DNA from: a virus
Taxonomy: Duplodnaviria > Caudoviricetes
DNA length: 64,000 bases
Virus record (IMG/VR): IMGVR_UViG_3300046786_000128
Location: 1 to 64,000 of that record
Strand: one strand, 5' to 3'
Position numbers and translations under genes: made by a program. The notes under the pieces were generated by a model. It saw nothing but the letters and a program-made list of their open reading frames with translations, did no database searches and was not told where the DNA came from. How positions within the stretch are numbered: position 1 is the first letter of the stretch; every line of letters begins with the position of its first letter. Below, one piece after another: positions 1 through 50,056 of this stretch.

Positions 1-1808
1 CTATTAGGTGCTGCTGGTGCTGCGCCTGAATTCTTTTGTAAAAACTTTAATAGTCTTGCTTTTCGATCTGTCGGTAATGCTGCGATAAGTTTCTTAACTT
101 GTTCAATATCCATAGGTGCTGTTGCACCTTTCTCATCTTTTGCATTTGTCGGACTGCTGGCAATCTTTAAAGATTTGTAAACGCCATCAACTACATTTGA
201 AGCAACACCTTGCTGTGTTAAAAATGCTTTTAATTCTTCGCTGTCAGTTGGTGATCCTGCTTTCTGCCAAGCAGAATTTAACTTGTCTGCTGTAACTTTT
301 GTTGTTAGATTCTTACCTTTGGTTGCAGCCCAGTTCATTGCTTTGCCAGCAGCACCTTTGATTGCATCCAACGGGCCTTCCATTAGTTTACCTTCTGACA
401 GCAATGCATCATTTAATTTGCATACACGATTAAACACCATGTACACTTGTCCTTCGCTTAATGATTTGCCTTGACTGATAACACTTTCGCCCTTCATGCC
501 TTTTAGCAATTCGGCAGCTTTTTCTTTGCTAACCATTGCTCTAGGCACTTCACCGTTGATAACTTTCTGTAGATAGTCTGCACTGTAACCAGATGCTGCA
601 TTACCTGCGGCATTTGCAGCAGCACTTGCAGCTTGTCCACCATTCTGTGTTTGCCAATCTAGAGCTTTTTGTGCATCTTCTGGACTAATCTTAAATCTAA
701 CTCCACTCTTTCCGCCAGCATCAATTACACGTTGTAGATACTCAGGAGCCATTCCTGCACCAAATGGTTTTGATGCTACATCAGTAGCAACATCTGCTGC
801 CTTAGACGCGATATCTGCAGATGCATCAACTGCACCTTTGCCAGCTGCTTTTGCAGTATCAGCTACACCGGCCATTGCATCACTTGATACCGAACCACTG
901 CTAATACCAGGAGTTGCCATTTTACCGGCATTGGATAAATCAGCAAACGTTTGTGTATCCATTGTCTTTAATGGAATATCACCTTGCCATACTTTTCTTC
1001 CAGTGGCATCTAAAACTTGTAGACTTTTTCCGCCTTCCCCTGCTGCAACAGTGTAACCTTGATCAGGTGGAAACTTACCAAGCAATCTATCTTGGAATGC
1101 TTGATCAGCAGCTAGTCCTTTTTCTATATCAGGATTGCCTAGTTGTCTTCTAAGATCCTGCGCATCTCCCATAGCATCATATGCATCTTTATCTGCTATT
1201 TTGCCTTTAACATAGTCACCGACTTTACTTGCACCGTAGGCCATAGCGCCAGTTTTTGCGCCTGAATAGGCAGCGGAGCTAAATTTTTCGCCTTGTAATA
1301 GCTTGTCTGTCATCTTTAACAAGCCTAGAACAGCAGCACCACCTAGTCCTGCACCGCTGATACCAGCAGCAGCGATAAGAGCAGAGTAAATTAAACCCTG
1401 TGCAATAGGATGTTCTTTAGCAAACTTACGATATTTTTGAATTACTTGATTAACCGCATTGTCTGGACCACCTAATCCAGCTTCGATTTTAGCAACAGCA
1501 TTATCATACATGCTGTCAACGTTCTTAACAGGACCACTATCTTGAATCTTAGTCTTTAGATCTTCCCAGGCTTTGTTTACAGCATCAATAGCATCTTTGC
1601 CCATACCTAGGGCTGTTCTATTTCCACCAGCTGCTGTAGCCTGTGTTTCAATTTCTTTGAATAGGCTTTGTATTTGATCAGCCGTTAGGGCTGCTTCCTT
1701 TAATTGTAATCCAGCATTTTCCCATAACGCCATTGTTTTTCTAGCATTATGATCCAGACCTTCATAAAGATATTGATTGTTAGTATTAGATATTTGTTGT
1801 ATTCTCAT
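1..1808 (-). CDS. Ala/Gly-rich putative internal head (ejected) protein, at least 602 aa, runs off the window start
   Basis: Missing from the ORF track because it has no stop in the window. Manual translation from ATG at 1808 (MRIQQISNTNNQYLYEG...KNSGAAPAAPN) is open to base 1. TAAATA box at 1836-1831. Several L-x-E motifs and one hydrophobic segment. Function is inferred. Confidence 0.6.
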   Translation of the reverse strand, partial: MRIQQISNTNNQYLYEGLDHNARKTMALWENAGLQLKEAALTADQIQSLFKEIETQATAAGGNRTALGMGKDAIDAVNKAWEDLKTKIQDSGPVKNVDSMYDNAVAKIEAGLGGPDNAVNQVIQKYRKFAKEHPIAQGLIYSALIAAAGISGAGLGGAAVLGLLKMTDKLLQGEKFSSAAYSGAKTGAMAYGASKVGDYVKGKIADKDAYDAMGDAQDLRRQLGNPDIEKGLAADQAFQDRLLGKFPPDQGYTVAAGEGGKSLQVLDATGRKVWQGDIPLKTMDTQTFADLSNAGKMATPGISSGSVSSDAMAGVADTAKAAGKGAVDASADIASKAADVATDVASKPFGAGMAPEYLQRVIDAGGKSGVRFKISPEDAQKALDWQTQNGGQAASAAANAAGNAASGYSADYLQKVINGEVPRAMVSKEKAAELLKGMKGESVISQGKSLSEGQVYMVFNRVCKLNDALLSEGKLMEGPLDAIKGAAGKAMNWAATKGKNLTTKVTADKLNSAWQKAGSPTDSEELKAFLTQQGVASNVVDGVYKSLKIASSPTNAKDEKGATAPMDIEQVKKLIAALPTDRKARLLKFLQKNSGAAPAAPN

Positions 1809-1830
1809 ATCGACTCGAAGATGTATTAGT

Positions 1831-1836
1831 TATTTA
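1831..1836 (-). promoter_or_regulatory. Putative late promoter core TAAATA
   Basis: TATTTA on the + strand, 22 nt upstream of the ATG at 1808; the same motif recurs before other structural genes. Confidence 0.6.
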
Positions 1837-1837
1837 T

Positions 1838-2340
1838 TGTACTTACGAGCTAAAGCTCGTATTCGTTTTCGCTTACGCTCAACGAATTTTCTTTCTTCTT
1901 TAATTATGAGACATTATTACTGCGAAGCAGTTTAAGTATTATGTAGATTGTTCAGTCACACTTAACCCAGGCAGGGTTAAGATTAGCATTATGTGAGTTG
2001 CACAATACACTTAGCGTTAAAGCATTACAGTGGCGGTCAGCCGGTACCACGAGCTTTGTCTTAATTACTGACGGTGGACTAATACACATACGCTAACATA
2101 TGCACTAGCCTAAGGGTTTTTCTCCCTTCTTTTAGCCTTGAAAAATACGTTTTTACAAATCAAACCGGTTTTATGAAAGGCATATCCGATCGTCGTCCTG
2201 TTAAGGATAGTGATTTGCTACTCTTCGCCAACTAGAGATTCCTTACCGTCACACATCAGAACGGATTTTGGGCACGATATAGTCGCCTGTGCGGGCTTTT
2301 TTGGCGATATTTTGCCTGGATTTATTGAGCCTAGGGTGTG
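1838..2340 (-). ncRNA. Putative large structured ncRNA (~500 nt), possibly ROOL/GOLLD-like class
   Basis: Only long ORF-free gap in a densely coding window. Many stems on the minus strand: CTTAACCC/GGGTTAAG, TACGAGC/GCTCGTA, ATTCGTT/AACGAAT enclosing GC-GTAA-GC, ACTGC/GCAGT, AAGGG/CCCTT, CCGTT/GACGG, TCCT/AGGA, GCATATG/CGTATGT. Boundaries are approximate and the family is unverified. Confidence 0.6.
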
Positions 2341-2341
2341 C

Positions 2342-2779
2342 CTACGGTAACTTATTTTTAATAATATGCGATCCATGTACACGAACTTGTATGTGTCCGT
2401 TGTACCAATCGTCTGATTCTAATACTTTGTTTTGGAATTGTTCTCTGGCTTCTATGTAAGAGCATTGCGCCTTGGATGTGCAGTAATATAGTATTTCTCT
2501 AGTGAAGTTTTCTTTGCCTAATGTTTCAATATCCTTGGTTAAATTGGGACTAGAGCCATAATAATCGCGCCAATCGCTGTCAATTTTACCACGAATTTTC
2601 TTTTTCTTCTTTGTGCCATTCTTTAATTTTACGGTTTTATACGTTGTTTTAGAGAATTTTGCTAGCTTTTTGCCTATATACTTTTTGCCAGAGACGACAT
2701 TTGTGATCAGATATACGAAACCTACACAATCTTCGGGCAGTGTTTCTACTACAGTATTCTGATACATCCATGTCATCAC
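2342..2779 (-). CDS. GIY-YIG family endonuclease (Seg-like, free-standing)
   Basis: GFVYLITN...KKYIGKK, YYGSS, REIL, Y-x-E and YN motifs; Lys-rich insertion KNGTKKKKKIRGK. Confidence 0.85.
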   Translation of the reverse strand: MMTWMYQNTVVETLPEDCVGFVYLITNVVSGKKYIGKKLAKFSKTTYKTVKLKNGTKKKKKIRGKIDSDWRDYYGSSPNLTKDIETLGKENFTREILYYCTSKAQCSYIEAREQFQNKVLESDDWYNGHIQVRVHGSHIIKNKLP

Positions 2780-3006
2780 GTAATTAGTTTACGCGGTCTC
2801 CCTGGCTTACCATTTCTGGCTATGCGCCTTTCTTCTCTTTTATTTTGAATTTCTGTTCGCCTAATGCTTGCCTCGTTTCTAATCTCTGATAACCAATATC
2901 GTGCCTTTATACCTGCCTCGTCAGTTCCGACATACTCAAATTGAGTCTGCCATTTAAAATATTCTTGAAACGCATTAATCATGCGATCATGTGAATCTGT
3001 GCTCAT
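2776..3006 (-). CDS. Small basic helical protein, histone H1-like (Hc1-like) DNA-binding candidate
   Basis: AGIKARYWLSEIRNEASIRRTEIQ resembles the AGxRARK..L.E pattern of Hc1-like proteins; Arg/Lys-rich tail; ATGA overlaps with both neighbours. Confidence 0.45.
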   Translation of the reverse strand: MSTDSHDRMINAFQEYFKWQTQFEYVGTDEAGIKARYWLSEIRNEASIRRTEIQNKREERRIARNGKPGRPRKLIT

Positions 3007-4781
3007 CCTATAATTTCAACATCGTTAGAATAGCTGGTAAATCCGTTTTCTTTGATAACTTTTAGAACATGATTTACACGGCTAGTTAAATCATCTCTGT
3101 GAGAAATTAAGAATACATTCTTATTTCTCTCACGACTCATACGCTTTAATACAGCAATGCTAGATTCAACACCGCTAGAATCCATTCCGCTATCTACTAA
3201 TTCGTCAATAAACAACAAATTGATAGAAGTATACAAGTTTTCCCATACATCTCGGAACGCCCAGCTCATAGAAAGTATCAATCTATTGCGCTCACCACGT
3301 GATAAATTGTCAAAGTCTAAGTCTTGTCCTAGTTGTGTAATGATAACTGATAGATCGTTTTGGAATTCTACAATATGTGGCAATCCGATTTTATCAAGAT
3401 AGTAAGTTAATCGTTGATTTAGGAATGCCAAGTTCTGATCGATAATTCGTTTACGCACAAAACTATCTTTGTTAGTTAACAATTTTAACAAGAACTCTTG
3501 ATGATCTTTTAATCTAACAAGTTCATTAACACTTTCCCAGTCTAATTCTTGAACAGCAGTATTCTTTAAGTCTTCAATCTGTTCTAGGTAAGGATTAACT
3601 TCTGCAACTTTAACTTCTAAATCTCTTTCTAGACTGCTTAGTGTGTTTTTATGATTCAGTGCTTGTTCTAGATTGTCGTAGATAACACTAGGACATTCAC
3701 CCAACTCACCTAATGCTTTTAATGCATCAGTATTTTCAATCCATTGTGTATTAGTAGAAAGAGCTTGTAAGGCTGCTTCTTGAAGAGCTTTACGTTTACT
3801 TTCTAAAACAGCTTCGTGTTTCTCGTCATGAAATGCTTGTCCGCAAGCATGACATGTATGCTTTTCTAGACTTTCAATTTCAATTTTTAATCTATCGATT
3901 TCTTTATTTTCTCTAGCTTCGTCTAATTCGCAACGAGCTATTAGACTTGTTAAATCTTTAATTTCTTTTCGTTTAGCATTATACGAATCTAAAGCTCTGT
4001 GCGCTGCAATTTCGTCATCGATATTAATGTGCATCATTTTATCAATGGCTTTTGCTAGGTTATTAATTGCAGTTTCTTTTTGATCTTCCCACATCCGCTG
4101 TTTGCGTTCTAATGCTTCGATACTTTGTTGGATTCTTTCGTTACTGGCTTTAATAGTTTCAAGTTTTGTGTTTTCAGTATTAATAGCATCTTTAGTTAAC
4201 TTGATTTGTTCTTTTAAAGATTCAGCCTTTTCACTTAATTGTGTAATACCTAGAAGTTGTTCAATGATGTTGCGTTGATCCGCAGCCTTCATTGACAGAA
4301 ATGGTTCAGTGTAGGTATTCAGTGCCACAATGTTTTTAAACATATCGTGACTTAACCCAAAAAGCTCGTCAATTGCTTTTTGAGTTTCTCTACTATCACC
4401 TTGGCTTTCGTCTTTATCTTCTAGGTCTTGTTCTTGTCCGTTGATACTAAATTTTAAAAGAGTGGGTTTACGACCACGTTCGATGTGATATTCAACACCG
4501 TCTTTTTCAAAGGTGATAGTAACCAACATACCTTTGTTGTTAATTTTGTTAACAAGGTTGTCTTTCTTAATATTAGTTAGGGCATTGCCGTAGATAGCAT
4601 AACTTAAACCGTTGATGATTGTAGTTTTACCTGTGCCGTTGCGAGCACCACTATCATCACCACCTAAGTCTAAGTTTTCACCTAAAACTAAAGTTAACTG
4701 TCCTTGATCAAAACTAATAGCCTGGGTTTGATTACCCACGCTCATAAAGTTTTTAACGGTTAAATTTTTAATTGTTATCAT
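3003..4781 (-). CDS. gp46: Recombination endonuclease ATPase subunit, T4 gp46/Rad50/SbcC-like
   Basis: Walker A GARNGTGKT, coiled coils, zinc hook CHAC, signature LSRGE, Walker B LLFIDE, H-loop ISH; adjacent to the Mre11-like gene. Confidence 0.95.
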   Translation of the reverse strand: MITIKNLTVKNFMSVGNQTQAISFDQGQLTLVLGENLDLGGDDSGARNGTGKTTIINGLSYAIYGNALTNIKKDNLVNKINNKGMLVTITFEKDGVEYHIERGRKPTLLKFSINGQEQDLEDKDESQGDSRETQKAIDELFGLSHDMFKNIVALNTYTEPFLSMKAADQRNIIEQLLGITQLSEKAESLKEQIKLTKDAINTENTKLETIKASNERIQQSIEALERKQRMWEDQKETAINNLAKAIDKMMHINIDDEIAAHRALDSYNAKRKEIKDLTSLIARCELDEARENKEIDRLKIEIESLEKHTCHACGQAFHDEKHEAVLESKRKALQEAALQALSTNTQWIENTDALKALGELGECPSVIYDNLEQALNHKNTLSSLERDLEVKVAEVNPYLEQIEDLKNTAVQELDWESVNELVRLKDHQEFLLKLLTNKDSFVRKRIIDQNLAFLNQRLTYYLDKIGLPHIVEFQNDLSVIITQLGQDLDFDNLSRGERNRLILSMSWAFRDVWENLYTSINLLFIDELVDSGMDSSGVESSIAVLKRMSRERNKNVFLISHRDDLTSRVNHVLKVIKENGFTSYSNDVEIIG

Positions 4782-6702: not shown

Positions 6703-6733
6703 TAGTTAATATAATAGCACATTTTGTCAAGAA

Positions 6734-6739
6734 TAAATA
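6734..6739 (+). promoter_or_regulatory. Putative late promoter core TAAATA for the baseplate operon
   Basis: ATAAATA 26 nt upstream of the ATG at 6766, in the divergent gap after gp55. Confidence 0.65.
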
Positions 6740-16055: not shown

Positions 16056-19000
16056 ATGGCACAAGAAATCTTTCCAGATAGTCAACTACCGATCAGAAGA
16101 ACAGTAGACTTATTACCTCAGGTTTTTCAAACTGAGGCAAATAATAAGTTTATGTCGGCAGTAGTTGATCCTTTAGTACAGCCAGGTGTTCTACAAAAAA
16201 CTGTAGGATACGTTGGGCGCCGCTACGGAAAAACATATAATGCTAATGATGTATATCTTGATACTGACGAAACATTAAGAAGCCGTTATCAATTAGAACC
16301 GGGTGTTGTTATCAAGCAAGACGAAAAAGTTACAAACTTTTACGATTATCTTGATTTTAAAAATCAAATTAAATTCTTTGGAAACAAAGAAGAAGTTGAT
16401 GCAGTTATTACAGCACAAGAACACTATACCTGGAATCCTCCAATTGATTGGGATAAGTTTGTTAACTATCGCGAGTACTACTGGGTACCGGATGGTCCAC
16501 CGCCTGTTAAAATTCTAGGCCAGGCACAAAATATTATTAGTACATATCGTGTAACACTGGGTGTTGGCAGTGTGTTTATTTTCACCCCTGATGGATTAAC
16601 AAATAATCCTACATTGACATTGTACAGAGGACAAACTTATAAGTTCAATATCAATGCACCAGACAACGGCCTAACAATTAAAACAGCTATTGACACAGGA
16701 TCTTTATTATACAATCCGTTGCTGTCTTATTCAAAAGGACAGATTGTTGTATTTGATGAAAAACTATGGAAAGCTAAAGATAATATTCCTGCAGGTGATG
16801 GCAGTACTATAGATGCTGATACACAAGATTGGGAATTTATCGATGATGCTCAATTCACAACTTCTTTAGATTACACTAAAGGAATCACCAACAACGGAGC
16901 AGAAACAGGTGTAATCACATTTGAAGTTCCGTTCGATGCACCCGATGTTTTATTCTATCAGAGTGCAACTGATCCTAATCGCTTTGGTAGATTCTTAATT
17001 TCTAACATTGAATCAAATACAAAAATTAATGTAGAAAAAGAAATCATCGGTAAGACAACATATACTAGCAGCAATGGTGTTGAGCTAACCAACGGCATGA
17101 TTATCTATTTTATAGGTTTAGTAAGTCCTGCAAAATATGCTGATGACGGTATAAAATGGTTAGTTGAAGGTGTTGGTTCAAAAATTACATTAACAAGATT
17201 TACAGACTTAATTGTTTCTGAAAATTTAAATGCAAATGCCCCTGAGGTATTATTTGATAACGGTGGTTTCGACAGCCAGCCTTACGATGATGCAAGTGCA
17301 TATCCGTCGTCAAAAGACTATATTACAATTAACAAATCTAGTATTGATTCAAATCCGTGGAGTCGTTACAATCGTTGGTTCCACAGAGCAACGCTAGATT
17401 ATTCTCACTCATTTAATAATTCAAATTTTGAAGCCGCTGAGACACTGAGAGCAAAGCGTCCTATTATTGAATTTAAACCTAATCTGCAATTGTTCAATCA
17501 CGGTTCGATTGCAAAACAGGTAGTTGATTATGTTGACGATTTCACAACTGATGTATTTTCTGTTATCGAAGGTAGCAAAGGATACATTGTTGATGGTGAA
17601 GCATTATTTGATGGTGCAAGAGTTCTAGTTACTGCCGACACTGATTCGTTAGCCAACAATCAAATTTACGTAGTAAAATTTATTAAACATAATAATGTTA
17701 CACAAATTAATCTGCAGAAAGCATCGGATGGCGAATCGTTACTTGGCGAAGGAGTTTTAGTTCGTCGAGGTAATAACAACAAAGGTTTGATGTACCATTA
17801 CAATGGTACAAACTGGATTAAAAGTCAATTAAAAACAAAAATTAATCAAGCACCGTTGTTTGATATTTTTGATGAAAATTTAGTCAGTTTATCTGATGCT
17901 GAAACCTACCCTGTAAGTTCTTTTGTAGGAACAGAAATCGTAAGTTATAAAATTGGCAATAGTGTTGTTGATAAAGAATTAGGATTTAGCGTATCTTATC
18001 TAAACATTAATAATGTTGGAGATATACAATTTGAATTTGATCTTGATACTGATACATTTACATATAATGTAGGACAGGATGTCTTTACTAAAAACATCTT
18101 AACAGGATTTTATAAATTTAACGGAATTGAATCTTACGATAACGGATGGAAAGTAATTGATAAAAACTTTACACAGCCAATTATTGATTCTGTTCCTGTA
18201 ACTACAGCGACTAATGTAATCACGTCAACTGCGGTAGATTGGAAATCAGTCTCTGATAGTCAAATTAGAAAAATTGTATTTTATGTTAACGGAGTTATTA
18301 CAAGAAAGACTTGGACACGTTCAGTTGATACATTTACATTTAGCAGCAATTTTGCAGCCGGTGATGTAGTAACTATTAAGTTATTTGCAGATTTAGATCC
18401 TAACACAGGATACTATGAAATTCCTTTAGGTCTAGAAAAGAATCCTTTAAACGATACTATCAAGACATTTACTCTAGGACAAGCCGCTGATCACATTTTA
18501 ACAGGTATTGAACTAGTTGATAATTTCTCTGGAATATATCCTGGTTCAAGTAATCTAAGAAATATTTCAGGTTACGAAAATAAAACAAAGCGTTTCTTGA
18601 AGCACAGTAATGTAGCACCGATTGCTACAGTATTATTATGCGATAAAGAAATTAATATTGTAAAATCAATTCAATATGCTAAAAAATCTTATACAGATTT
18701 TAAGAATACATTTATTGACATTGCTTATAACTTGTATTTCGATCAAGAAAACATCGACTACGTTGATACTATCTTAGAAGAAATTAGTAAAACACAAAAT
18801 ACATCAAGACCATTTTCTGGATCAGATATGATCGGCAGTGGTGCATATTCTGAATTAGTTTATACTGTAGAAGACGAAGGCATTAAAACTTTTGCCCTAT
18901 CACAAAAATTTGATTTAGAAACATTGAGCTCTAGAGCTGTATATGTTTATTATAATAATGAACAATTATTAAATGGTACTGATTACGAGTTTAATTCTAA

Positions 19001-22000
19001 CTTTGGTTTTGTTAGATTGAAAATTTCGTTAGCGGAAGGCGATGTTATTCGTATTAGAGAATATGTTTCAACATCTACAAACTTTATTCCTCCTACACCT
19101 ACAAAATTAGGATTGTATAGAAAATATACACCTATGAAATTTTTAGATACTACCTATACTGTACCTAAAGAAGTTATTCAAGGACACGATGGTAGCATCA
19201 CTGTTGCTTATGGAGATTTTAGAGATGACGTATTGCTTGAGCTAGAGAAACGTATCTACAATAACATCAAGCAACAATACAACGAATCTATTTTTAACAA
19301 TGATAATATTCTTGGCGGATATTACGGAAATTCAGAATTTGGAAAAGCAGAATTAGATGCAATCGTAACTCCTGAATTCTTAAAATGGATTGCTGACACA
19401 AATTTAGATTATGTAAACAACATTTACTTTGACAGTGAAAATAGTTTTACATTTACATATTCAAACATGGTGGACCCAACTGGGAATAAAAATCTGCCAG
19501 GTTACTGGAGAGGTGTTTATAAGTGGTTCTATGATACAGATCGTCCACACATTTGTCCTTGGGAAATGTTAGGCTTTAGTGAAAAGCCAACATGGTGGGA
19601 AGCAGAGTACGGTCCGTTGCCTTACACAAGTAATAACTTAATTCTATGGGAAGATTTAAGAGACGGTATTATTCGTCAAGGCGAAAGAGCTGGAACCCGA
19701 GATAGATATAAGCGTCCATCATTGATGCGACATATTCCAGTAGATGGAGACGGAAATCTAATCAGTCCATTAGATTCCGGACTTGCTGGTAATTTCACAA
19801 TGGCTAATAACAAGGGCCCGTTTGTTCTTGGAGATCAAGGACCGGTTGAAGCTGCTTGGAGATCAAGTAGTGAATGGCCATTTGCTGTTACATTAGCATT
19901 ATGTCTATTAAAGCCTTTTGAATTCATCACTGACAATTTTAATAAGTCTGAAACTACATTAAACATTTTAGGGCAGACTATTAATAAACATTCAAAAACA
20001 TTCTTTAATATTTCTGACCTAGTTTATGAAAATACCGATACAGTTTCTGTATCTGGATTAGTAACCTATGTTGTAAATTATTTGAAGAGTAAAACTATTC
20101 CTGTTTCTAATTTAGAAAAGAAATTATCAGGAATTGACGTTAATCTTTCAAATCGTTTAGCTGGATTTGTTGATAAAGAACAACAAAAATATGTGTTAGA
20201 TAGTAAAAATCCTAAGTCTACAACTAGCAGCATTTTTATTCCTAACGAAAACTATAACATCATCTTTAACGTAAGTTCTCCGATTTATTCTTTAGCATAC
20301 AGCGGAGTTATTATTGAGAAGACTAGCCAAGGCTGGAAGATTACAGGCTATGATAGCAAAGACCCATATTTTACATATTACAAACCTGTAATTAGTCAAA
20401 CTGATCCTTTAATTTCTGTAGGCGGAGTTAGTGAAAACTTCTTAACTTGGACAGCAGAAAAATTCTACGGTAACGGAGTTGTTGTAAAATACGGACAGAG
20501 TTATTACAGAAGTTTGAAGAGTCATACAAGCACTGATACATTTGATACAACAGTGTGGAAGCAATTACCTGCTCTGCCTGTTACAAATGCAATTCAAGCA
20601 TTTAGAAGAAAAAATTACAACAAACTAAAAACACATAGATTGAACTACGGTACTCTAATGTCGTCAATCCAGGAAGTGGTTGACTTTATGTTAGGATACC
20701 AGGAGTATCTAATTAGTATTGGTTTTGTATTTGACGGCTATGATACAACTACACAAACGGCATATGACTGGTTCACCTCTGTAAAAGAGTTTATGTTCTG
20801 GACCAAGCACAACTGGAGTGAAGGTTCGTTATTAACATTGAGTCCTAATTCACAAAAAGTTGACATTAAGATTGCTTTGGGTGTTGCAGACAGTTTCTTA
20901 GATAGTTTTTATGACTATCAAATTTTAAAAGACGACGGGACTCCGTTAGCTCCTGCATACATTGAAGTTGCAAGAGATTACCAAACCCTATCGTTATCTA
21001 CCATCAACACAAACAGCGGCATTTATTTTATGAGAGCAAATTTTGTTCTCAAAGAGCATGTTGTTATTTTCGATGACAGAACAGTGTTCAACGATGTTAT
21101 CTACGATAAGCCAACTGGGTATCGTCAAGAACGTATTAAGAGTCGCGGCTTCCGCACAGTTGATTGGGACGGTGATTACACTAGCCCTGGCTTCTTATTT
21201 GATAACGTTAATATTGCTGCATGGCAACCATTTACAGATTACAAACTAGGCGACATTGTTGCCTACAAGAGCTATTATTGGACAAGTAAGGGTTCTCAAT
21301 TAGGCACTGAATCATTTGTAGACTCTCAATGGACAAAATTAGATTCTACTCCTACTCAAGGCCTAGTAGCTAACTTTGATTACAGAATTAATCAATTTGA
21401 AGATTACTACGAAGTTGAGTCAGACGGAGTTGGATCAAGTCAACGTGACCTAGCAAGACATGCTATTGGATATCAACCAAGAGAATACCTGCAAGGATTA
21501 GCAGAGGATGAAATCAGTCAATTTAGATTGTATCAAGGTTTCATTAAAGAAAAAGGTTCGTCAAATGCAATTACTAAGGTATTTGATAAACTAAGTAGAA
21601 CCACCGATGATGCTGTTACGCTTAACGAGGAATGGGCATTTAAGGTAGGTGAACTTGGCGGAGTTGCACAGATAAGAGAAATTGAATTTGAAATTTCTAA
21701 AGATTCAATTCAAATTAATCCACAACCTACACTAATTGTTGAATCAAAGAGCAGCATTGTTTCTGATCAAAATTTAAGAATTTCGCCTAGCGATTTTACA
21801 ATTCAACCTACAGTATTCACAACTAAAATAAATGATGTTGCAATATTTGACGGTGCGTCAAGAGCTGCGGGCTATGTTCACTTAGATGATGTAGATTTTA
21901 TTGTTAAAACTAGAGATGATATTTTAAACATTAATATTAATACAGTTAATGAAAATGATCACTTCTGGGTAACATTTGATTCTGCTGCATGGACAGTTTT

Positions 22001-25000
22001 AAGATACAACGAAACATTATCTCTTAGAATTGTAAGAGTAATAAAAGACGGCGACAATGTAACGTTAACTCTAAACAGAATTCATAATCTTGCTGTGGGT
22101 GATATTATTGGTATTACCCTGGTATTGAATTTAACTGGATTCTATAAAATTACTGCGGTTGATAAAACAACAGTAACAGTAGTTTCTACAGGAAATGATC
22201 CAGCAATTGAAGATAGTACCTCTGCGGTTATCGGTACTTTTACAACAGCTAAGTTTGACACATATCAAGATCTAGATTATAAGACAACTGCTTTATTGGC
22301 AAACGGTTCTAAACTTTGGATTGATTCAAACGAATCAGGAAACTGGGAAGTTGTTGAAAAAATTAGACAATATCAAACATATGATTTGGTTGACTATGGT
22401 ATCACCGCTCCGTTGCATACAGGAACATCGGTTGCATATATTGATAATTTAAAACAAATTGCAACTTCGTTGCCTGCTTCTAACTATGTAATGATTTACA
22501 CAGATAGAACAAATGTTAATCAGGCATTAGGATTAAAACAAATTATTCCAGCACCAAACGGTATTGAAGATACAGTCGACGGTGTATTTGGACAAGTTCT
22601 TGCAGTAAGCCCTGATTACAAGTGGTTGGCAGTTTCTACGCCACTAGCAAGCGGAGTTACAAATCCCTACATGGGCGAATTAACTACTAGAAGTTATCTA
22701 GCAGGTGAAATAGTTCTGTATAACGGCAAGTTATGGAAAGCATTGGTTAATACAGTTCCAGCAGACGGCAGTTCTATTAATTTTAATTCTCAAGATTGGG
22801 AACCGGCAACACTAGTTGAAGCAAACACAACAAGCAGAGGTGTTGGTGCAGTTAATCAAGGTATGGTGTCATTGTACACTTATCAAAACGATCAATGGGA
22901 AAACGTTTATAACATTCTAAGCCCAAGGCAAGCGGCAGATGAGCGTTTTGGTAGTGCTGTAACATTTGGTGTAAGTGGTAACAAATACTACATGGCAGTT
23001 TCTGCTATTGGATCTCTATGTGATCCTCAAATAGGATACAGTACAGGAGTAGGCAGAGTATATCTATACTACTACAATGGCACTACCTGGACTCATCACG
23101 AGAATCCAAATTATGCAGGAGTTTATGATAGTTCTCCTACAGCAACCTATTCAGCAGGAACAATTGTTTGGGCTGACGGAAGCCTATGGCAAGCCTTATC
23201 AGATACACAGGGTGATGGTAGTACATTAACTGTTGATTCAAACGAATGGTTAAAACTAGATCCTGTTACAACTAATAATTCCTTACCAACTAATGTAGCA
23301 GTAGACGATGATGGTTCTACACTAGCTATGGGCTTGTTAGATACTACACAACTTGCAGAATTAGTCAAGCAGGGTGACAGTTTTGGTACTAGCCTTTCTA
23401 TGTCTAGAGATGGAAGCATCTTAGTTGTAGGAGCTCCTAGCAGTGACGGACAATACCTTGCCAATTACAGAGGCGTTTGGAATCCATACCAAGAATATCT
23501 CACAGGTGATGTTGTTAAGTATCAAGACAGCTATCATGTCTTAGCAGTTGCTGTATCAAGTAAGAATGAAATGCCGGATGACGGAGCGCCTTGGCAAAAT
23601 ACAGGCGATAGCACATTTACTACTACCGGCAAGATTTTTATCTACAATAGAAACAGTAATGGTGTTTACAATCTAGTACAGACAATTACTAATCAATCTC
23701 TTGAGCTAATTAACGACATTGGATCTTTAGGATCAATTGCATCTGGCGATAATTTTGGAACCTCAATAGATATTGATTCATCGGGAACAACATTAGTAGT
23801 CAGTAGCCCAACCGCAGACATTTTAAGACAGAATCAGGGAGCTGTGTACGTTTTCAAACGTAGTACTGGATCATCTGAATTTAGATTAAAACAAAAATTA
23901 CAGAGTTACGAAAACTACACAAACGAATATTTTGGTACAAGTGTTTCTATTAGTCCAGCTACAGAACGAATTGTTATTGGTGCAAAAAATGCTAGTTATA
24001 ATGTAATAACTACATTTGATTCTGTTGGAACAACTTTCGATAGAAGAAGAACAACATGGTCCTCTCCAGCAGGTTTTCCTGGACAAGTATATGTCTACGA
24101 AAGAAAAGATCAAGGTTATTTCTTAGCAGAAAAATTACAGGCTAATTTTGAAAACTATGAATCGTTTGGTGCATCAATTGATTGCACAAATTCTGTAGTA
24201 GTTGTTGGCTCTCCTAACTACGTAGAAAACGGCGAAGCAAAGGGTAGAGTACGATTATTCAAGAAAACATCTAATAAAGATAGTATTAATATTATTAGAA
24301 GCCAGCCCGAACAAGTTAATTTAGATGCTATCAAGAATATTGAATTGTATGATAACGAAAACAATATTAAGATTGCAGACGTTGATATCATTGATCATTT
24401 TAAATTAAAGATTCTAAATGTTGCAGAACAAGACATTAAGTTTAAAACAGTCTATGATCCGGCAATGTATATTCTAGCCACAGACAACGAAACTGTTGAT
24501 GAAAATCAAGCATGGTTTGAAGACCATGTAGGTGAAGTTTGGTGGGATTTAAGCACAGTTAAATTTGTAAATGCTGAGCAAGATGACATTTCTTATAGAG
24601 TAGGAAACTGGAGTACTCAGGTACAAGGTTCATCAGTTGATGTTTATGAATGGGTTGAAACACCTTTATTGCCATCCGAATGGAGTATACTTGCAGATAC
24701 AGTAGGCGGATTGGCTGAAGGTATCAGTGGCCAGCCAAAACATGCAGACGATACTGTCTATAACACAAAAGTATTATACAATCCTAACACTGGTAGAGCA
24801 ACAAGTACTCTTTATTATTTCTGGGTTAAGAATAAAACAGTTCTTCCTAGCGATAAACGTAGAACAGTATCTGTTTCTACAATTGCATCTTACATTTCTA
24901 ATCCAGTTGGAACAGGAATTCCTTTTGTTGCATTAGTTGATGCAGACAAATTAGCATTTTATAATTTCTCTTCAGTAGTTAGTGGTAACTCTGTTTTAGT

Positions 25001-28000
25001 TAATATTGAATACAATAAAGATGCTAAAGAAGAAAATCCTATACACAGAGAATATCAATTATTAACAGAAGGTGTAGCAGACAATATTCCTTCGGAGTTC
25101 TTAGAAAAGAAATGGATTGACAGTTTGGTTGGCTTCGACGAAGCAGGTAACACTGTTCCTGACTTTAATCTTTCGTTAAAGCAACGTTATGGATTAGGAT
25201 TTAGACCAAGACAAACAATGTTTGTTAATAGAGCCAAGGCCCTAAAAATAGCAATTGATAATATTAATTCTATTTTAGAAACAAGACCGTTTGTAGATAC
25301 AATCGATTTTGAAAATCTATCGTTGAAAGATGCTGTACCTAGCGCATTATTAAATGAGTACGATTTAGAAGTTGACAATTACATTGACTTAGAACAAGTT
25401 GGTACTGTAAAAGTTCGCCAAGCAGTATTTTCTACAAATATTATTAATGGTGAAATTGATACAATTGATATTGTAGATCCTGGATTTGGTTATAGAACAG
25501 CACCATATGTTTCTATCCAAGGAACTGGCAAAGGTGCTAAAGCAACTATTACATTAGATACTCAAGGCAGAGTTAACTCTATTACTGTTACAAATAGAGG
25601 AAAGAAATATACTTCTGCTCTAGTAAAAATTAGACCATTCTCAGTATTGGTTAAGAATGATGCCAGCGACAAGGGTTTCTGGAGCATCTATTCATGGGAT
25701 CAACAACGTAGAATTTTCTATCGTAGTAAAGCTCAAGGTTTTGATACTACAATATATTGGGAATACACAGACTGGTGGGCATCTGGATTCAGCAGCCTAT
25801 CTAGGATTACCAAAGAGATCACAAACTTCTATGAAGAGCCTTCGGTTACATTAGAAGTGGGAACCTTATTACGAGTTAAAGAATATTCGAACGGTGGTTG
25901 GGCAGTTTTAGAAAGGACTGAAGCCGGCGCCGGAAATTTAATTAACAATTATAATCTAGTTGGTAGAGAAAACGGCACAATCAGAATTAAAGATTCATTG
26001 TACAACGCATTAACTACTGCGCTAGGATATGATAATGTTGGATCTTATGATGCAGCATTATATGATCTACAACCAATTAAAGAATTAAGAAACATTCTTA
26101 AAGCTGCAAAAGACGATATTTTTGTAGATGATTTAAGAGTTGAATGGAATAAACTATTCTTTAGTTCTGTAAGATATGCGTTCTCTGAACAGCAATATGT
26201 AGACTGGGCTTTCAAAACTAGTTTCTTAAATGCAATTCACAATGTGGGTGATTTGGACCAACGTCCAAACTATAAGAACGACAACTTAGAAAGTTTTAGA
26301 AAGTACATCGAAGAAGTTAAACCTTATAGAACAACTATTAGAGAATATACAAGTAGATATACCGAAAACGAAAACTTCTATGGTGGAACAATTGACTTTG
26401 ATTTACCTCCAGCATATTCTGCCAGAGACGGAAAGATTTTACCAGTAAGTCAATATTATAACAGATTGAATGAATATCCATGGAAGTGGTGGACAACTAA
26501 TAACGGTTATTCCATTACAGAGATTACAGTATCTAATACTGGCGGCGATTATAAAACACCTCCAACAGTATTAATCGAAGGCAATGGCACAGGAGCATCT
26601 GCTACAGCATTTATTGCCAGCGGTAAGGTATCTGGAATTCGTGTTGATAATCCAGGATCTGGTTATACTAAAATCCCAACAGTTACATTAGTTGGCGGTA
26701 ATGGTACAAGCCAGAATATTGCTAAAGCCGCAGCGGTAATGGGTGATACTGTTGTTAGAACTTTTGATTTAACAATGAAGTTTGATAGAATCAGCAAGAC
26801 TGGTTTGTATCAAAATTTCACACAAAGTCAAACATTTACAGCAACTGGTTATAGTGCGGTCTTTAATTTAAATTATGCACCGTCTAGAGACAAGACTAAA
26901 ATTCGTGTTATTAAGAATGGAGAAATTATCCTAAGCAATGAATACGAAATTGATTTATATTATGATCAATTAGATGGATATACTCTATTAAAAGGCAAGT
27001 TACGATTTATAGTTGCTCCTTTAAAGAATGATATTATTGTTGTTACCTATGACAAGAATGATGAATATCTCGACGCTGTTAACAGAATTGATAAAAATTA
27101 TGCGCCAACTTCAGGAATGAAGGGCAAAGAAGTTAATCAATTAATGACTGGTATTGACTTTGGCGGTGTACAAATCCAAGGTACTACATTTGATGTTACT
27201 GGCGGCTGGGATGCTCTTCCATGGTTTACTGATAACTGGGATAGCGTTGAAACTAACAGCGATTACTATTATATTGCTGATGGTAGTACAACCTATGTAG
27301 TATTGCCTAATACCCCTTTAGAAGGACAGTTGATTTCGATCTACTTAAAGCGTGTAGGAGAATCAAGAGCAACAAGGATTGATGATCCAAAGTTTGGAAC
27401 AATAGAACAAACAAATAACAATGCTCTAATGCCAACATTTGTTGGTGACGGGTCTACAAATATTGTACAACTTCACAATCCATCTACTGATGCTGTCTAT
27501 GTACACATCAATGCAGATGATACATTGATTTTCCGTAATGTTGAAAGTGATGGTTCTGTAACTATCACAGACATTAACTTGTTAGATACAAGAATTAGTG
27601 GAGGTACGTTAGCAAGCAACGGCAGCGCATATGTAACTGCAACAGGCCTAACACCGGAAGAAATTGTTATTGACGGTGATAAGTTTGTAACACCGGATCA
27701 AGTTCCTGCACCAGAAGAAAACTTACCGGGACAGGTGTTAGACAGTCTAAGTATCAAAGTTTATACATCTACCAATCCTGGATCTGCACCGTTACAATCA
27801 AAAGTCTCCATCGGCGACGGAGTTACTGCTGTCTTTGCTATTGGTTTAACAGTTGTTGAATCTAAATCTGTAATGGTTTATGTAGATAAAGTTAAACAAG
27901 AAATTGGTACAGATTATAACATTAATTTTAATGATAACACTGTAGAATTTGACATTGCTCCGATCCTAGGATCAATTGTTGAAATTATCTCTATTGGTAT

Positions 28001-29741: not shown

Positions 29742-29744
29742 ATA
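29739..29744 (+). promoter_or_regulatory. Putative late promoter core TAAATA overlapping the giant gene stop codon
   Basis: TAA stop extends to TAAATA; next ATG at 29770. Confidence 0.5.
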
Positions 29745-30414: not shown

Positions 30415-32490
30415 ATGCCATATATTGTTAATTTTACAGATAAAGAAAATAAACTGCCAATTACAGTTTATGATAATACATCCAGCACAGATACTAGTTT
30501 AGTTTTTCCAGGACGAAATGTTACCGGTTATGGACAAACTATTGCTGAAAACTTTCTAGCATTGTTAGAAAATTTTGCTAAAGATACTGCTCCGGTTAAC
30601 CCAGTAGAAGGACAATTATGGTTTAATACCTTAGACGGTGTTCTACAAATTTGGGATAGTACAACCTGGAAGGCAGCATCTAACATTCAAAAGGGCGGTG
30701 TTGAACCCCCTACAGCATCTTCAGCAGTTGGTGAATTATGGGTTGATACAACTAATCAACAGTTGTATGTCTATTCAGGAACACGTTGGATTTTAGTTGG
30801 TCCTACATTTTCAACAGGATTACGAAGTGGTCCACTTGTTGAAGAAGTTATCGACTCCGATAACATTGCAAGAGTAGTTTTAATATTCTACGTTGAAGAC
30901 ATACCTGTAATTATTTTTAGTAAAGATGCATTTACTCCAAAAATTTCCATTACTGGATTTGTAACAATTAAATCTGGTTTAAACATTACAGCTAACGAAA
31001 TTGCGGATAACGGAGCAATAACAAAAATTTGGGGAACAAACACTTCAACTGAATCATTAACTGTTGCAGGCGTTGAAATCCCAGCTAGTAAGTTTTTAAG
31101 ATCTGATGCAGCTAATCAAACATTAGAATATGGTATCAACGTAAGAAACAACCAAGGTATTACAATTGGTGTTGACGGAACATTTAGTATTACAAATAGC
31201 GATACTGCTGCAAAGATTTATAATTCTAATCCAGGTAGTAGTATTGACTTACAACTTAACAAGGATGGTATTCCGTCTACAGTTTTACGAGTCATCAACA
31301 ACACAGTTGGTATCAATGTAGCAAGTCCAGACGAAGCACTCCATGTAGATGGTAATATTAAGACAAATGGATCTTTAATATTAACAGATACAACTATGAG
31401 TACTAATTTTAACAATGGTACTTTTAGAACAGCAGGCGGTGCAGCCATTACAAAGAATCTCTTAGTAGGCGATGGTTTAAAAGCATCGGGTATTAGTGAG
31501 TTTGATACAGTACAACCTTCAGTTACTGATGCATTTGATTTAGGTACAGTTCTTAAGCGTTGGAACGTTGTTAGAACAAAAACTTTGGTTGCAGAAACAA
31601 TCGAAGGTGTGTTAACAGGTAATATTGTTGGTAATGCTTCAACTGCAACTAACTTAAAATTTGTTACAACTTTTAAGATGGAAGGTGATGTAACATCGCC
31701 AAGTATACAGTTTGACGGACAGGTAGGTGGATTATCAAAGACATTCACTACATCACTAACATCCGGACTTATTAGCAGTAAGAGTGAACCGTCTCCTAAC
31801 GTATCGAAACCAACTGATTATGTACTTGTTTATAGAGGAACAGAAGGTCTACTCAAAGAATCTAGGAACGTATTTGTTGGAGACTTAGGAGTTCCAATGG
31901 GAGGAATTCTACCATTTGCTGGTAGCGAAGCACCATACGGATATTTGCTATGTGACGGTAGTGAAGTTGAAAGAACAAAGTACAGCGATTTATTTGATGT
32001 TATTGGAACAACATACAATGGTTCGATACCTTTAGTAGGTGTTAATACATTTAGACTTCCAGACTTGCGTGGTAGATTCCCATTAGGTCGAGATAACATG
32101 GATAATGGTGTAACAGTTCCTAACTCTACAGGTGGTTATGTTGATGCAGGCGGCGGCAACGTTGACAGAGTAGCAGGTACTGCACCTGACAACTTAGGCG
32201 AAGGTGGTGGACAAAGTTCTAACGCTTTAACAGTTTCTAACTTGCCAGAACATGAACACAGCATGAAAGGTTCAACAGGACAGCAATATTATGCAACTAG
32301 GGTTGATAGTGCTATTCCTATTGATACTGGTTCTTTATCTGATAAAGGTCCAACAACAGTTGGACAAAGTCAATACATTCCTAGTTCTGGTGGTATTAAA
32401 ACAGCAGGTACATTAGGACAACAGTTCTCTGTTATGAATCCGTTCTTAACATTGAATTACATTATTCGTTCTGGTCCAGCAGCATTCTAA
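30415..32490 (+). CDS. Tail fibre protein with phage tail collar domain (gp12-like)
   Basis: Shared fibre N-terminus; PMGGILPFAGSEAPYGYLLCDGS...FDVIGTTY...FRLPDLRGRFPLG collar motif; ends in NPFLTLNYIIR. Confidence 0.85.
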   Translation: MPYIVNFTDKENKLPITVYDNTSSTDTSLVFPGRNVTGYGQTIAENFLALLENFAKDTAPVNPVEGQLWFNTLDGVLQIWDSTTWKAASNIQKGGVEPPTASSAVGELWVDTTNQQLYVYSGTRWILVGPTFSTGLRSGPLVEEVIDSDNIARVVLIFYVEDIPVIIFSKDAFTPKISITGFVTIKSGLNITANEIADNGAITKIWGTNTSTESLTVAGVEIPASKFLRSDAANQTLEYGINVRNNQGITIGVDGTFSITNSDTAAKIYNSNPGSSIDLQLNKDGIPSTVLRVINNTVGINVASPDEALHVDGNIKTNGSLILTDTTMSTNFNNGTFRTAGGAAITKNLLVGDGLKASGISEFDTVQPSVTDAFDLGTVLKRWNVVRTKTLVAETIEGVLTGNIVGNASTATNLKFVTTFKMEGDVTSPSIQFDGQVGGLSKTFTTSLTSGLISSKSEPSPNVSKPTDYVLVYRGTEGLLKESRNVFVGDLGVPMGGILPFAGSEAPYGYLLCDGSEVERTKYSDLFDVIGTTYNGSIPLVGVNTFRLPDLRGRFPLGRDNMDNGVTVPNSTGGYVDAGGGNVDRVAGTAPDNLGEGGGQSSNALTVSNLPEHEHSMKGSTGQQYYATRVDSAIPIDTGSLSDKGPTTVGQSQYIPSSGGIKTAGTLGQQFSVMNPFLTLNYIIRSGPAAF

Positions 32491-32501
32491 GGTAAAAACA
32501 C

Positions 32502-34340: not shown

Positions 34341-34344
34341 TGAG

Positions 34345-34350
34345 TAAATA
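34345..34350 (+). promoter_or_regulatory. Putative late promoter core TAAATA
   Basis: 15 nt upstream of the ATG at 34366, with GGGAG between them. Confidence 0.6.
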
Positions 34351-34365
34351 TGTAGGGAGCGAAGA

Positions 34366-36180: not shown

Positions 36181-36196
36181 TTCATGCTATTTACGA

Positions 36197-36202
36197 TAAA
36201 TA
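36197..36202 (+). promoter_or_regulatory. Putative late promoter core TAAATA
   Basis: 22 nt upstream of the ATG at 36225, with CGGAG between them. Confidence 0.6.
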
Positions 36203-36224
36203 ACAGTTATAACGGAGTTGATCA

Positions 36225-38906: not shown

Positions 38907-38950
38907 CTCCTATTAAGTACCACATAAATAATGTGCGTATTTAATAGGAG
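38907..38950 (+). promoter_or_regulatory. 19-bp hairpin with TAAATA at the loop and the RBS in the stem
   Basis: CTCCTATTAAGTACCACAT (38907-38925) pairs with ATGTGCGTATTTAATAGGAG (38931-38950) with one bulge and one G-U pair; ATG at 38956. Confidence 0.75.
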
Positions 38951-50015: not shown

Positions 50016-50050
50016 TATATACGTGTCCTAATTAACCACGTATATATTTA
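50016..50050 (-). promoter_or_regulatory. Perfect 10-bp hairpin overlapping TAAATA and the RBS region
   Basis: TATATACGTG (50016-50025) and CACGTATATA (50037-50046) flank an 11-nt loop; TATTTA at 50045-50050; ATG at 50014. Confidence 0.7.
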
Positions 50051-50056
50051 TCTCTA

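What the first reader, a model, noticed from the sequence alone, without database searches (positions are those of the whole stretch)
1838..2340. ~500 nt ornate non-coding RNA candidate in a phage replication/late-gene junction
Seen: the only long ORF-free stretch in 64 kb, more GC-rich than its flanks and containing about ten stems, including an 8-bp CTTAACCC/GGGTTAAG helix, a GNRA-capped GC-GTAA-GC inside ATTCGTT/AACGAAT, and a terminal TACGAGC/GCTCGTA hairpin. Established: large ornate RNAs of unknown function (ROOL, GOLLD) occur in phages. Inference: this is such an RNA or a new class. Segments such as GGTAAG...ATCCTTA...GGAC...GGATA...CCTTTC and ACTGAAC remind me of ROOL, but that is recollection, not an alignment.
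Basis: partly seen in the sequence, partly recalled or inferred. Interest (0 to 1): 0.85.

Follow-up and report, generated by a model that had tools for sequence, protein, structure and literature searches.

The report
Full-length Polynucleobacter-1 twin-box phage RNA
The gene-free gap encodes a real, about 470-base, multiply knotted non-coding RNA of an uncultured giant T4-like freshwater phage. Its first third is the catalogued but unexplained Polynucleobacter-1 motif. The uncatalogued rest carries one 7-letter word twice, and what reads that word is still unknown.

Summary
Window 1809-2341 is the only long ORF-free stretch, and the named hairpins exist. The RNA is read from the minus strand, about 2317 to 1844.

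Rfam RF01718 (Polynucleobacter-1) matches 2297-2153 at 70.8 bits against a cut-off of 37. ROOL, GOLLD and introns do not match.

More than 130 IMG/VR phage contigs carry homologues. 108 representatives under 95% identity are conserved over the whole ~470 nt. A 24-helix model with four pseudoknots is 85.8% paired against 71.5% in shuffles, with covariation 0.396 against 0.166 (0/500 shuffles).

Two single-stranded boxes, ACAUAAU at 1994-1988 and 1944-1938, are identical to each other in 101 of 105 RNAs, across 11 box types. I found no partner for them in the RNA, its flanks or whole phage genomes.

The RNA follows a small PSSM2_218-type GIY-YIG gene, which does not co-vary with the boxes. It ends at a covarying hairpin just before an ATAAATA late promoter. 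Behind that lies a variable gene slot whose products have capsid-targeting-like N-termini.

Sampled freshwater Burkholderiales genomes carry the RNA too, beside a DUF6641 gene and without the nuclease.

This scan reached the same reading many times on other DNA. Function remains unknown.

The parts
1844..2317 (-). Whole RNA gene (~474 nt). It runs from the conserved AGGCA, 25 nt behind the GIY-YIG stop codon, to the end of the terminal hairpin.
   Evidence: Conserved over its whole length in 108 representatives. Fold z is -2.47 on this strand only.
2153..2297 (-). Match to Rfam RF01718, Polynucleobacter-1 RNA, covering model positions 1-141.
   Evidence: 70.8 bits against a gathering score of 37, E 5e-13.
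2302..2306 (-). 5' leader strand of pseudoknot PK1. It pairs with the hairpin loop at 2226-2230 and lies upstream of the Rfam model's start.
   Evidence: MI/APC. In one search, helix 1 has 4 of 5 pairs with changes on both sides.
2011..2107 (-). Hairpin H10 (2107-2097 with 2090-2080). Its whole 6-nt loop (2096-2091) pairs with 2016-2011, forming pseudoknot PK3.
   Evidence: in helices 12-13 all 11 pairs change on both sides. In helix 14 (PK3) all 6 of 6 do, with 94.7% of cells paired.
2020..2072 (-). Nearly invariant core: AAGAC, GGUACCGG and ACCGCC within helices H13 and H14. Pseudoknot PK4 joins 2072-2068 to the H14 loop at 2040-2036.
   Evidence: Invariant columns; helix 15 is 98.7% paired, helix 16 has 4 of 4 double changes, helix 17 is 96.3% paired.
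1987..1997 (-). Twin box 1: CUC-ACAUAAU-G. The variable 7-mer is at 1994-1988.
   Evidence: Identity covariation with box 2.
1961..1981 (-).
   Evidence: helix 18: 89.2% paired, 4 pairs with double changes.
1937..1947 (-). Twin box 2: UCU-ACAUAAU-A. The 7-mer is at 1944-1938.
1862..1886 (-). Helix H17 enclosing GC-GUAA-GC and the conserved GAGCG...AGCGAAA loop.
   Evidence: helices 21-23, with double changes but weaker alignment.
1844..1861 (-). Terminal 7-bp hairpin, the likely 3' end of the RNA. No U-tract follows it on this strand.
   Evidence: helix 24: 6 of 7 pairs with double changes..
1831..1837 (-). ATAAATA, a T4-type late-promoter core for the downstream ORF.
   Evidence: All 6 copies in the 64 kb lie 29-37 nt upstream of a co-oriented ORF start. 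Present in 40 of 49 related loci.
2342..2779 (-). Upstream gene: a 145-aa GIY-YIG protein of the SegE-like Pfam family, homologous to P-SSM2 PSSM2_218.
3..1808 (-). Downstream late ORF (more than 602 aa, cut by the contig end). It occupies the variable slot behind the RNA.

Best explanation
**Shown.** The gap is the gene of a free-standing structured non-coding RNA of about 470 nt, read from the minus strand. Its first third is the Rfam motif Polynucleobacter-1. The whole molecule has some 19 helices, four pseudoknots and a nearly invariant GGUACCGG...ACCGCC core, and it is conserved in hundreds of uncultured giant T4-like freshwater phages and in islands of freshwater Burkholderiales.

**Inferred.**
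- It is made by read-through from the upstream recombination-gene/GIY-YIG transcription unit. Only about 25 nt separate the stop codon from the conserved 5' end, with no promoter in between.
- It ends at the covarying terminal hairpin, because the next gene has its own ATAAATA late promoter.
- It acts in trans.
- Its two equivalent single-stranded arms each present the same 7-nt box behind CUC or UCU.
- The most likely use of the boxes is to dock two copies, or two sites, of one partner by base pairing.

The fixed differences between the arms are all transitions (CUC/UCU, G/A). One G- and U-containing partner strand could therefore read both arms through G-U wobble. The partner and the biological output are unknown.
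For: - **Family match:** RF01718 at 70.8 bits against 37, over the full model.
- **Homologues:** 108 representatives are conserved from about 20 nt before the Rfam start to the terminal hairpin.
- **Covariation:** unbiased MI/APC recovers Watson-Crick covariation all along the RNA, including four pseudoknots.
- **Structure counts:** 85.8% of cells paired against 71.5% in shuffles; covariation 0.396 against 0.166 (0/500); 0.055-0.090 when partners are slid; 81 of 98 pairs change on both sides.
- **Strand:** z is -2.47 on the minus strand and -0.38 on the plus strand.
- **Twin boxes:** offset-constant identity covariation (GG 55 / AA 50 at one column pair), and no third covarying column. 101 of 105 RNAs have identical 7-mers across 11 types. 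Bacterial and divergent copies keep the rule with other words: AGCGAAA, GGCGAAA, AGCGAUG.
- **Independence from the downstream gene:** ATAAATA lies between the terminal hairpin and the ORF. In many loci the next gene is on the other strand.
- **Independence from the nuclease:** the bacterial copies examined have no GIY-YIG gene beside the RNA. GIY-YIG columns associate with box letters less than the control protein gp46 does, 0.41 against 0.68.
Against: - No transcript ends were measured.
- No partner for the boxes was found in the RNA, in about 10 kb of flanks, or in four large phage records, so 'docking by base pairing' is inference only.
- Identity could instead be read by a protein or at the DNA level.
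- The tight position behind one gene family in phages (33 of 37 loci) also fits a 3'-UTR role.
- The terminal hairpin is not a canonical intrinsic terminator.
Confidence: 0.35

Rival explanations
1. Cis-acting part of the upstream mRNA. The RNA would be a structured 3' UTR that protects or regulates the orf76/GIY-YIG message, or releases a processed 3'-UTR RNA, rather than a gene in its own right.
For: The conserved 5' end begins 0-70 nt behind the GIY-YIG stop in 33 of 37 loci, with no room for a promoter. No sigma-70-like promoter lies in the gap.
Against: 470 nt with four pseudoknots and an invariant core is far more than 3'-end protection needs. In four loci another ORF sits between the nuclease gene and the RNA. 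The bacterial copies examined have no GIY-YIG gene and face a divergent DUF6641 gene instead. The GIY-YIG family is common in isolate phages that lack the RNA.
Confidence: 0.2
2. The twin boxes are read by a dimeric or two-site protein, on the RNA or on the DNA (iteron or operator style). The RNA fold is a scaffold around them. At the DNA level this would make the 3' part an origin or control region.
For: There is no nucleic-acid partner despite several searches. The boxes are 50 bp apart in this window, roughly five helical turns at 10.5 bp per turn (my arithmetic).
Against: Eleven or more box words, including quite different ones in bacterial copies, would each need a matching change in a protein. 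The nearest candidate protein does not co-vary. There are only two copies and no further copies in the genome beyond chance. The flanking arms are themselves a structural duplication at RNA helix ends.
Confidence: 0.15
3. Self-processing or template-switch element. The identical boxes would mark two equivalent cut, ligation or jump sites, so that the ~50-nt hairpin segment between them is removed or circularised, regenerating one box.
For: Identity of direct repeats is the signature of systems where a copy of one site must match the other. A conserved hairpin lies between the boxes.
Against: No internal guide covaries with the boxes. No joint across the boxes appears in the RNA contigs laid (table 5). 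No joined form exists among IMG/VR homologues. No known ribozyme family matches.
Confidence: 0.07
4. Guide or cofactor RNA of the adjacent GIY-YIG nuclease, forming a nuclease-RNA system.
For: Tight adjacency in phages. The same link was noted by Weinberg et al. 2010.
Against: The RNA occurs without the nuclease in the bacteria examined. The nuclease occurs without the RNA in the isolate phages tested, and its family is present in 520 isolate phage records. There is no co-variation with the box. No complement of the boxes lies nearby.
Confidence: 0.03
5. A member of ROOL or GOLLD.
For: Only its size, ornateness and phage setting.
Against: There is no Rfam hit to either family even at E up to 10. 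The recalled segments align to RF01718 instead.
Confidence: 0.01

Closest known systems
Polynucleobacter-1 RNA motif (Rfam RF01718; Weinberg et al. 2010, Genome Biol 11:R31, PMC2864571)
   Same: The first ~145 nt match the whole model well above its cut-off. The habitat is the same (fresh water), and so is the position downstream of a PSSM2_218-like gene.
   Different: The published motif is 141 nt with no pseudoknots annotated in the Rfam model, and its authors found it in no sequenced purified phage. Here it is the 5' third of a ~470-nt RNA that starts ~20 nt earlier. That RNA has four pseudoknots, an invariant core and twin boxes, and it sits in giant T4-like phage contigs.
Large ornate RNAs GOLLD, ROOL and OLE (Kretsch et al. 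2025, PMC12286853)
   Same: They are large, intricately folded, of unknown function, and (GOLLD and ROOL) often phage-borne.
   Different: There is no sequence or structure match. Nothing here shows oligomer formation. None of those RNAs is known to me to carry identity-covarying direct repeats.
Identity-matched short repeats that serve strand transfer, such as coronavirus TRS-L/TRS-B or retroviral R (from my own knowledge)
   Same: Two short direct repeats are kept identical while their sequence drifts.
   Different: Those work through a polymerase copying one site and re-annealing at the other. No such polymerase, joined product or RNA replication is seen here.
T4 tRNA/stable-RNA region with segB and ipI (from my own knowledge of the T4 map, not tested here)
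   Same: A GIY-YIG gene, stable RNAs of unknown role, and a hypervariable internal-protein gene lie side by side.
   Different: T4 RNAs C and D are small and unrelated. The resemblance is in layout only.

Membership tests
Polynucleobacter-1 RNA (RF01718) | Covariance-model score at or above the curated gathering score, over the full model | tested here: met
   70.8 bits against 37, model positions 1-141, E 5e-13.
Polynucleobacter-1 RNA (RF01718) | The model's helices are kept by compensatory change in relatives | tested here: met
   helices 3, 6 and 8 are 97-98% paired, with 5 of 5, 6 of 6 and 3 of 5 pairs changed on both sides.
Polynucleobacter-1 RNA (RF01718) | Lies downstream of a GOS11034 / PSSM2_218-like gene (Weinberg 2010 supplement) | tested here: met
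   The supplement text is quoted. The window protein against PSSM2_218 gives 38% identity, E 6e-21, full length. 33 of 37 related loci share this position.
Polynucleobacter-1 RNA (RF01718) | Fresh-water or Burkholderiales distribution | tested here: met
   Three freshwater metatranscriptome runs from three studies hold the stretch at 99% or more identity. 3 of 151 sampled genomes of the order of a Burkholderiales MAG match above the cut-off.
ROOL / GOLLD | Match to the family covariance model | tested here: not met
   A permissive Rfam scan of 1700-2500 at E up to 10 lists only RF01718 and a chance snoRNA hit.
Group I/II introns and other catalogued ribozymes | Match to an Rfam model | tested here: not met
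   No tRNA or tmRNA either.
Twin-box RNAs (this scan's working name) | Two direct 7-nt boxes behind CUC and UCU, identical within each RNA but differing between RNAs | tested here: met
   ACAUAAU occurs twice in the window. 101 of 105 RNAs are identical across 11 types. The rule holds in bacterial copies.
T4-type RNA-primed replication origin | A promoter plus an unwinding element, with replication starting there | not testable with these tools
   No promoter consensus lies in the gap. Initiation cannot be measured here.

The most novel reading that the evidence does not exclude
The two arms are programmable docking sites. Each box, with its CUC or UCU flank, base-pairs with the same short sequence in a trans nucleic acid, either two molecules or two sites. 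That would make this a new kind of guide-like RNA, shared by giant phages and host islands at their fast-evolving 'arms-race' gene slots.
Probability: 0.12. Interest if true: 0.9.

Novelty: new variant of a known kind. Interest (0 to 1): 0.66.

Why it matters
A 2010 orphan motif turns out to be the head of one of the larger and more knotted bacterial-virus RNAs. It is widespread in uncultured giant freshwater phages and shared with islands of likely host bacteria.

Its twin boxes show covariation by identity rather than by complementarity. I know of no other structured RNA that does this, and it implies an unseen reader.

Even if not, the family is a good target for cryo-EM and for finding what phages and islands both need at their variable gene slots.

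Tried and rejected
1. **Isolate phage DNA.** A blastn of the gap against 50,697 isolate phage records gave no match. RF01718 is absent from Melnitz, V45v66, ACP17 and C48C1, although these encode the GIY-YIG homologue.
2. **Bacterial genome scan.** The genome-contig scan with GGTACCGGNNNACCGCC gave only GC-rich chance hits. nhmmer found no RNA in them, so that scan was wasted.
3. **Intramolecular box partner.**
   - No third column covaries with the boxes.
   - A U-rich stretch (GAUUGUUUG) can wobble-pair with many boxes (44 of 101). It is the covarying 3' strand of helix H6 and does not track box changes, so I rejected it.
   - There is no third box copy beyond chance, 32 hits against 38 in the control.
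4. **Box partner in ~10-kb flanks.** 5 hits in 200 tests against 25 in 960 control tests. The 14-of-15 complement inside gp46 of this window is therefore chance.
5. **Box partner in whole records.** In records of 133-345 kb, only the gene's own antisense strand and chance-level extra hits appeared, and these were not shared between genomes.
6. **Box as a genome-wide motif or promoter.** Counts were at chance.
7. **Small ORF from the box 1 AUG to the box 2 UAA.** The spacing and the AUG are not conserved.
8. **DNA-level deletion between boxes.** 37 hits to the joined form, none in a homologue. The one deletion variant, L247, is not box-mediated.
9. **GIY-YIG as box reader.** Association is below the phylogenetic background.
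10. **GIY-YIG against solved structures.** No match by sequence.
11. **DUF6641 and tyrosine recombinase in the phages.** Both absent, including from a 99%-complete 345-kb record.
12. **Metatranscriptome contigs.**
   - The deepest contigs cover 3071-2009, 2491-2070 and 2254-2040, and stop before box 1.
   - The 3' third has little cover.
   - These are assembled contigs that may include DNA, so uncovered parts and depth are no evidence.
   - I draw no conclusion about processing.
13. **Promoter scans.** Nothing above chance near 2900-3400 or in the gap.

Full report
**Observation**

Window 1809-2341 lies between two minus-strand ORFs, a 145-aa protein (2342-2779) and an ORF of more than 602 aa (3-1808). 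It contains only chance ORFs of up to 54 aa. All other gaps in the 64 kb are filled by co-oriented small ORFs. The minus strand folds better than dinucleotide shuffles (z -2.47) and the plus strand does not (z -0.38). The GC excess is marginal.

**Identity**

Rfam release 15 gives a single hit in the window at gathering threshold. It is RF01718, Polynucleobacter-1 RNA, at 2297-2153 on the minus strand, 70.8 bits against a cut-off of 37, covering the full model. A permissive scan of 1700-2500 at E up to 10 adds only a chance snoRNA hit. ROOL, GOLLD, introns and ribozymes are therefore excluded as far as Rfam reaches. There is no tRNA or tmRNA.

Weinberg et al. 2010 described the motif from freshwater and estuary samples and one Polynucleobacter genome. 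They noted that it lies downstream of genes resembling PSSM2_218 of cyanophage P-SSM2, and that they had found it in no sequenced purified phage.

**Setting**

- The neighbours on the minus strand are a gp55-like late sigma factor, gp47/SbcD, gp46/SbcC, a 76-aa ORF and the GIY-YIG protein.
- The plus strand beyond them carries baseplate and tail-fibre genes and a 4561-aa virion protein.
- The record is an IMG/VR contig of 76 kb estimated at 21% complete.
- gp46 is closest, at 48% identity, to giant phages such as PA5oct, Atu_ph07 and Phosso.
- The GIY-YIG protein is a full-length homologue of PSSM2_218, 38% identity, E 6e-21. The context Weinberg described is therefore reproduced.

**The RNA is much longer than the Rfam model**

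Together they gave 135 loci with the middle motif, many on contigs of 110-345 kb. At under 95% identity they reduce to 108 representatives.

Conservation runs from a conserved AGGCA about 20 nt before the Rfam start to the terminal hairpin. An unbiased mutual-information scan recovers Watson-Crick covariation all along the RNA.

My model has 24 helix segments and 98 pairs, and includes four pseudoknots:

| Pseudoknot | Pairing (window coordinates) |
|---|---|
| PK1 | 5' leader 2306-2302 with hairpin loop 2230-2226 |
| PK2 | 2296-2294 with 2287-2285, inside the first Rfam hairpin |
| PK3 | whole loop 2096-2091 with 2016-2011 |
| PK4 | 2072-2068 with 2040-2036, inside the invariant GGUACCGG...ACCGCC core |

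Counts for this model on the tool's own alignment of the 108 sequences:

| Measure | Observed | Control |
|---|---|---|
| Cells paired | 85.8% | 71.5% in shuffles |
| Covariation score | 0.396 | 0.166 in shuffles (0/500 reach it) |
| Covariation with partners slid | - | 0.055-0.090 |
| Pairs with changes on both sides | 81 of 98 | - |

The 3' two-thirds carry as much support as the Rfam part. PK3 has 6 of 6 pairs with double changes, H13 has 4 of 4, and the terminal hairpin has 6 of 7.

**Twin boxes**

Two segments stand out: CUC-ACAUAAU-G at 1997-1987 and UCU-ACAUAAU-A at 1947-1937. They covary by identity at a constant offset. One column pair reads GG 55 / AA 50, and others behave likewise.

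- In 101 of 105 RNAs the two 7-mers are identical, with 11 different words. The window's word is unique in the sample.
- Each box sits about 20 nt behind the 3' end of a helix (UAAG-UG...CAA-YYY-box). The two arms are therefore a structural duplication.
- The fixed differences between the arms are all transitions (CUC/UCU, G/A). A single partner strand using G-U wobble could read both. This point is inference.
- No third column in the RNA covaries with the boxes.

All searches for a complement or a further copy, and for a joined form, were at chance level:

- inside the RNA;
- in about 10 kb of flanks;
- in four whole phage records;
- as a genome-wide motif;
- as a joined, box-recombined form.

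The neighbouring nuclease does not co-vary with the box. Its best normalised association is 0.41, against 0.68 for the control protein gp46.

**Boundaries and transcription**

- In 33 of 37 loci the RNA begins 0-70 nt behind the GIY-YIG stop, and no promoter consensus lies in the gap. Read-through from the upstream unit is therefore the simplest reading.
- ATAAATA occurs only six times in the 64 kb. Each copy lies 29-37 nt upstream of a co-oriented ORF start, so it is this phage's late-promoter core.
- One copy (1837-1831) sits between the terminal hairpin and the downstream ORF. The same holds in 40 of 49 related loci. The RNA is therefore not the leader of that gene.
- Freshwater metatranscriptome runs from three studies hold this phage at 99% or more identity. 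They are assembled contigs, so I use them only as a sign of habitat, not of transcript shape.

**Distribution beyond phages**

- 3 of 151 sampled genomes from the order of a Burkholderiales MAG, all 1.8-1.9 Mb, match RF01718 above the cut-off. A fourth, of 1.7 Mb, matches weakly.
- Their copies have the 3' extension and twin boxes with other words: AGCGAAA, GGCGAAA, AGCGAUG.
- None of the three copies whose flanks I read (two above the cut-off and the weak one) has a GIY-YIG gene beside the RNA.
- In all three a DUF6641 gene faces the RNA divergently.
- One of the three sits in an island with an integrase and an SNF2-Mrr protein. Another sits beside a type III restriction-modification system.
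- The phages lack both DUF6641 and tyrosine recombinases.

**Variable slot**

Behind the RNA the phage loci have a slot filled by at least 21 unrelated ORF families, before a conserved baseplate-hub backbone. Most same-strand slot ORFs begin with M-K/R-I/V-x-E/D-I-I/L-x-E. This resembles the 10-residue capsid-targeting propeptide of T4 internal proteins, which is cleaved at (L/I)xE (PMC9026906). The exact T4 sequence I compare with is from memory.

**Earlier work in this scan**

The notes show the same RNA was reported many times on other genomes, with the same reading and the same unsolved boxes. I reached my reading before looking. The notes prompted the bacterial search and agree with what I found.

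**Verdict**

- This is a real, large, pseudoknotted RNA.
- It is a member of RF01718 by every test I could run, but with an undescribed full-length architecture.
- Its function is unknown.
- The most likely mode of action is a trans-acting RNA whose two identical arms dock one kind of partner.

Noticed in passing
window 1831-1837, 6733-6739, 29738-29744, 36196-36202, 38924-38930, 50045-50051: ATAAATA occurs only six times in 64 kb, against about 35 expected from base composition. Every copy lies 29-37 nt upstream of a co-oriented ORF start. It is evidently the gp55-type late-promoter core and is avoided elsewhere.
   Followed up: partly
window 3-1808 (-) and the first ORF behind the RNA in loci such as L069:6621-7973, L263:8754-9776, L334:6765-7919: The slot directly behind the RNA holds at least 21 unrelated ORF families with no PHROG match. 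Most same-strand ones share an N-terminus like MKVYEIISE, which resembles the T4 capsid-targeting propeptide. They are candidate hypervariable internal (injected) proteins.
   Followed up: partly
window 16056-29741 (+): A single 4561-aa ORF matches a virion structural protein family (phrog_10938, 1083 bits). It is followed by at least four paralogous tail-fibre-like genes (30415-37979) that share an N-terminal module.
   Followed up: no
L376:8130-15657 (bacterial genome G057), L377:3734-10698 (G099), L373: In bacterial copies a DUF6641 gene lies divergently 110-180 nt upstream of the RNA. One island also has a 212-aa tyrosine recombinase and a 1331-aa SNF2-Mrr fusion. Another has a type III R-M system and DUF6876.
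   Followed up: partly
window 2342-2779 (-): The small GIY-YIG protein is 71-82% identical across contigs whose gp46 is only 55-76% identical. Its homologues in about 520 isolate phage records are widely mislabelled 'NAD synthetase'. It looks like a conserved enzyme rather than a homing endonuclease.
   Followed up: partly
L247:8253-8644: One contig carries a version of the RNA lacking about 75 nt (the PK3 3' strand, box 1 and the inter-box hairpin). The end points do not lie in the boxes. It may be a natural deletion or an assembly error.
   Followed up: partly
window 3702-3716 (-), inside gp46: A 15-mer complementary to the box 1 arm in 14 of 15 positions lies on the same strand inside gp46. 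Other loci show no such match, so I take it as chance.
   Followed up: yes
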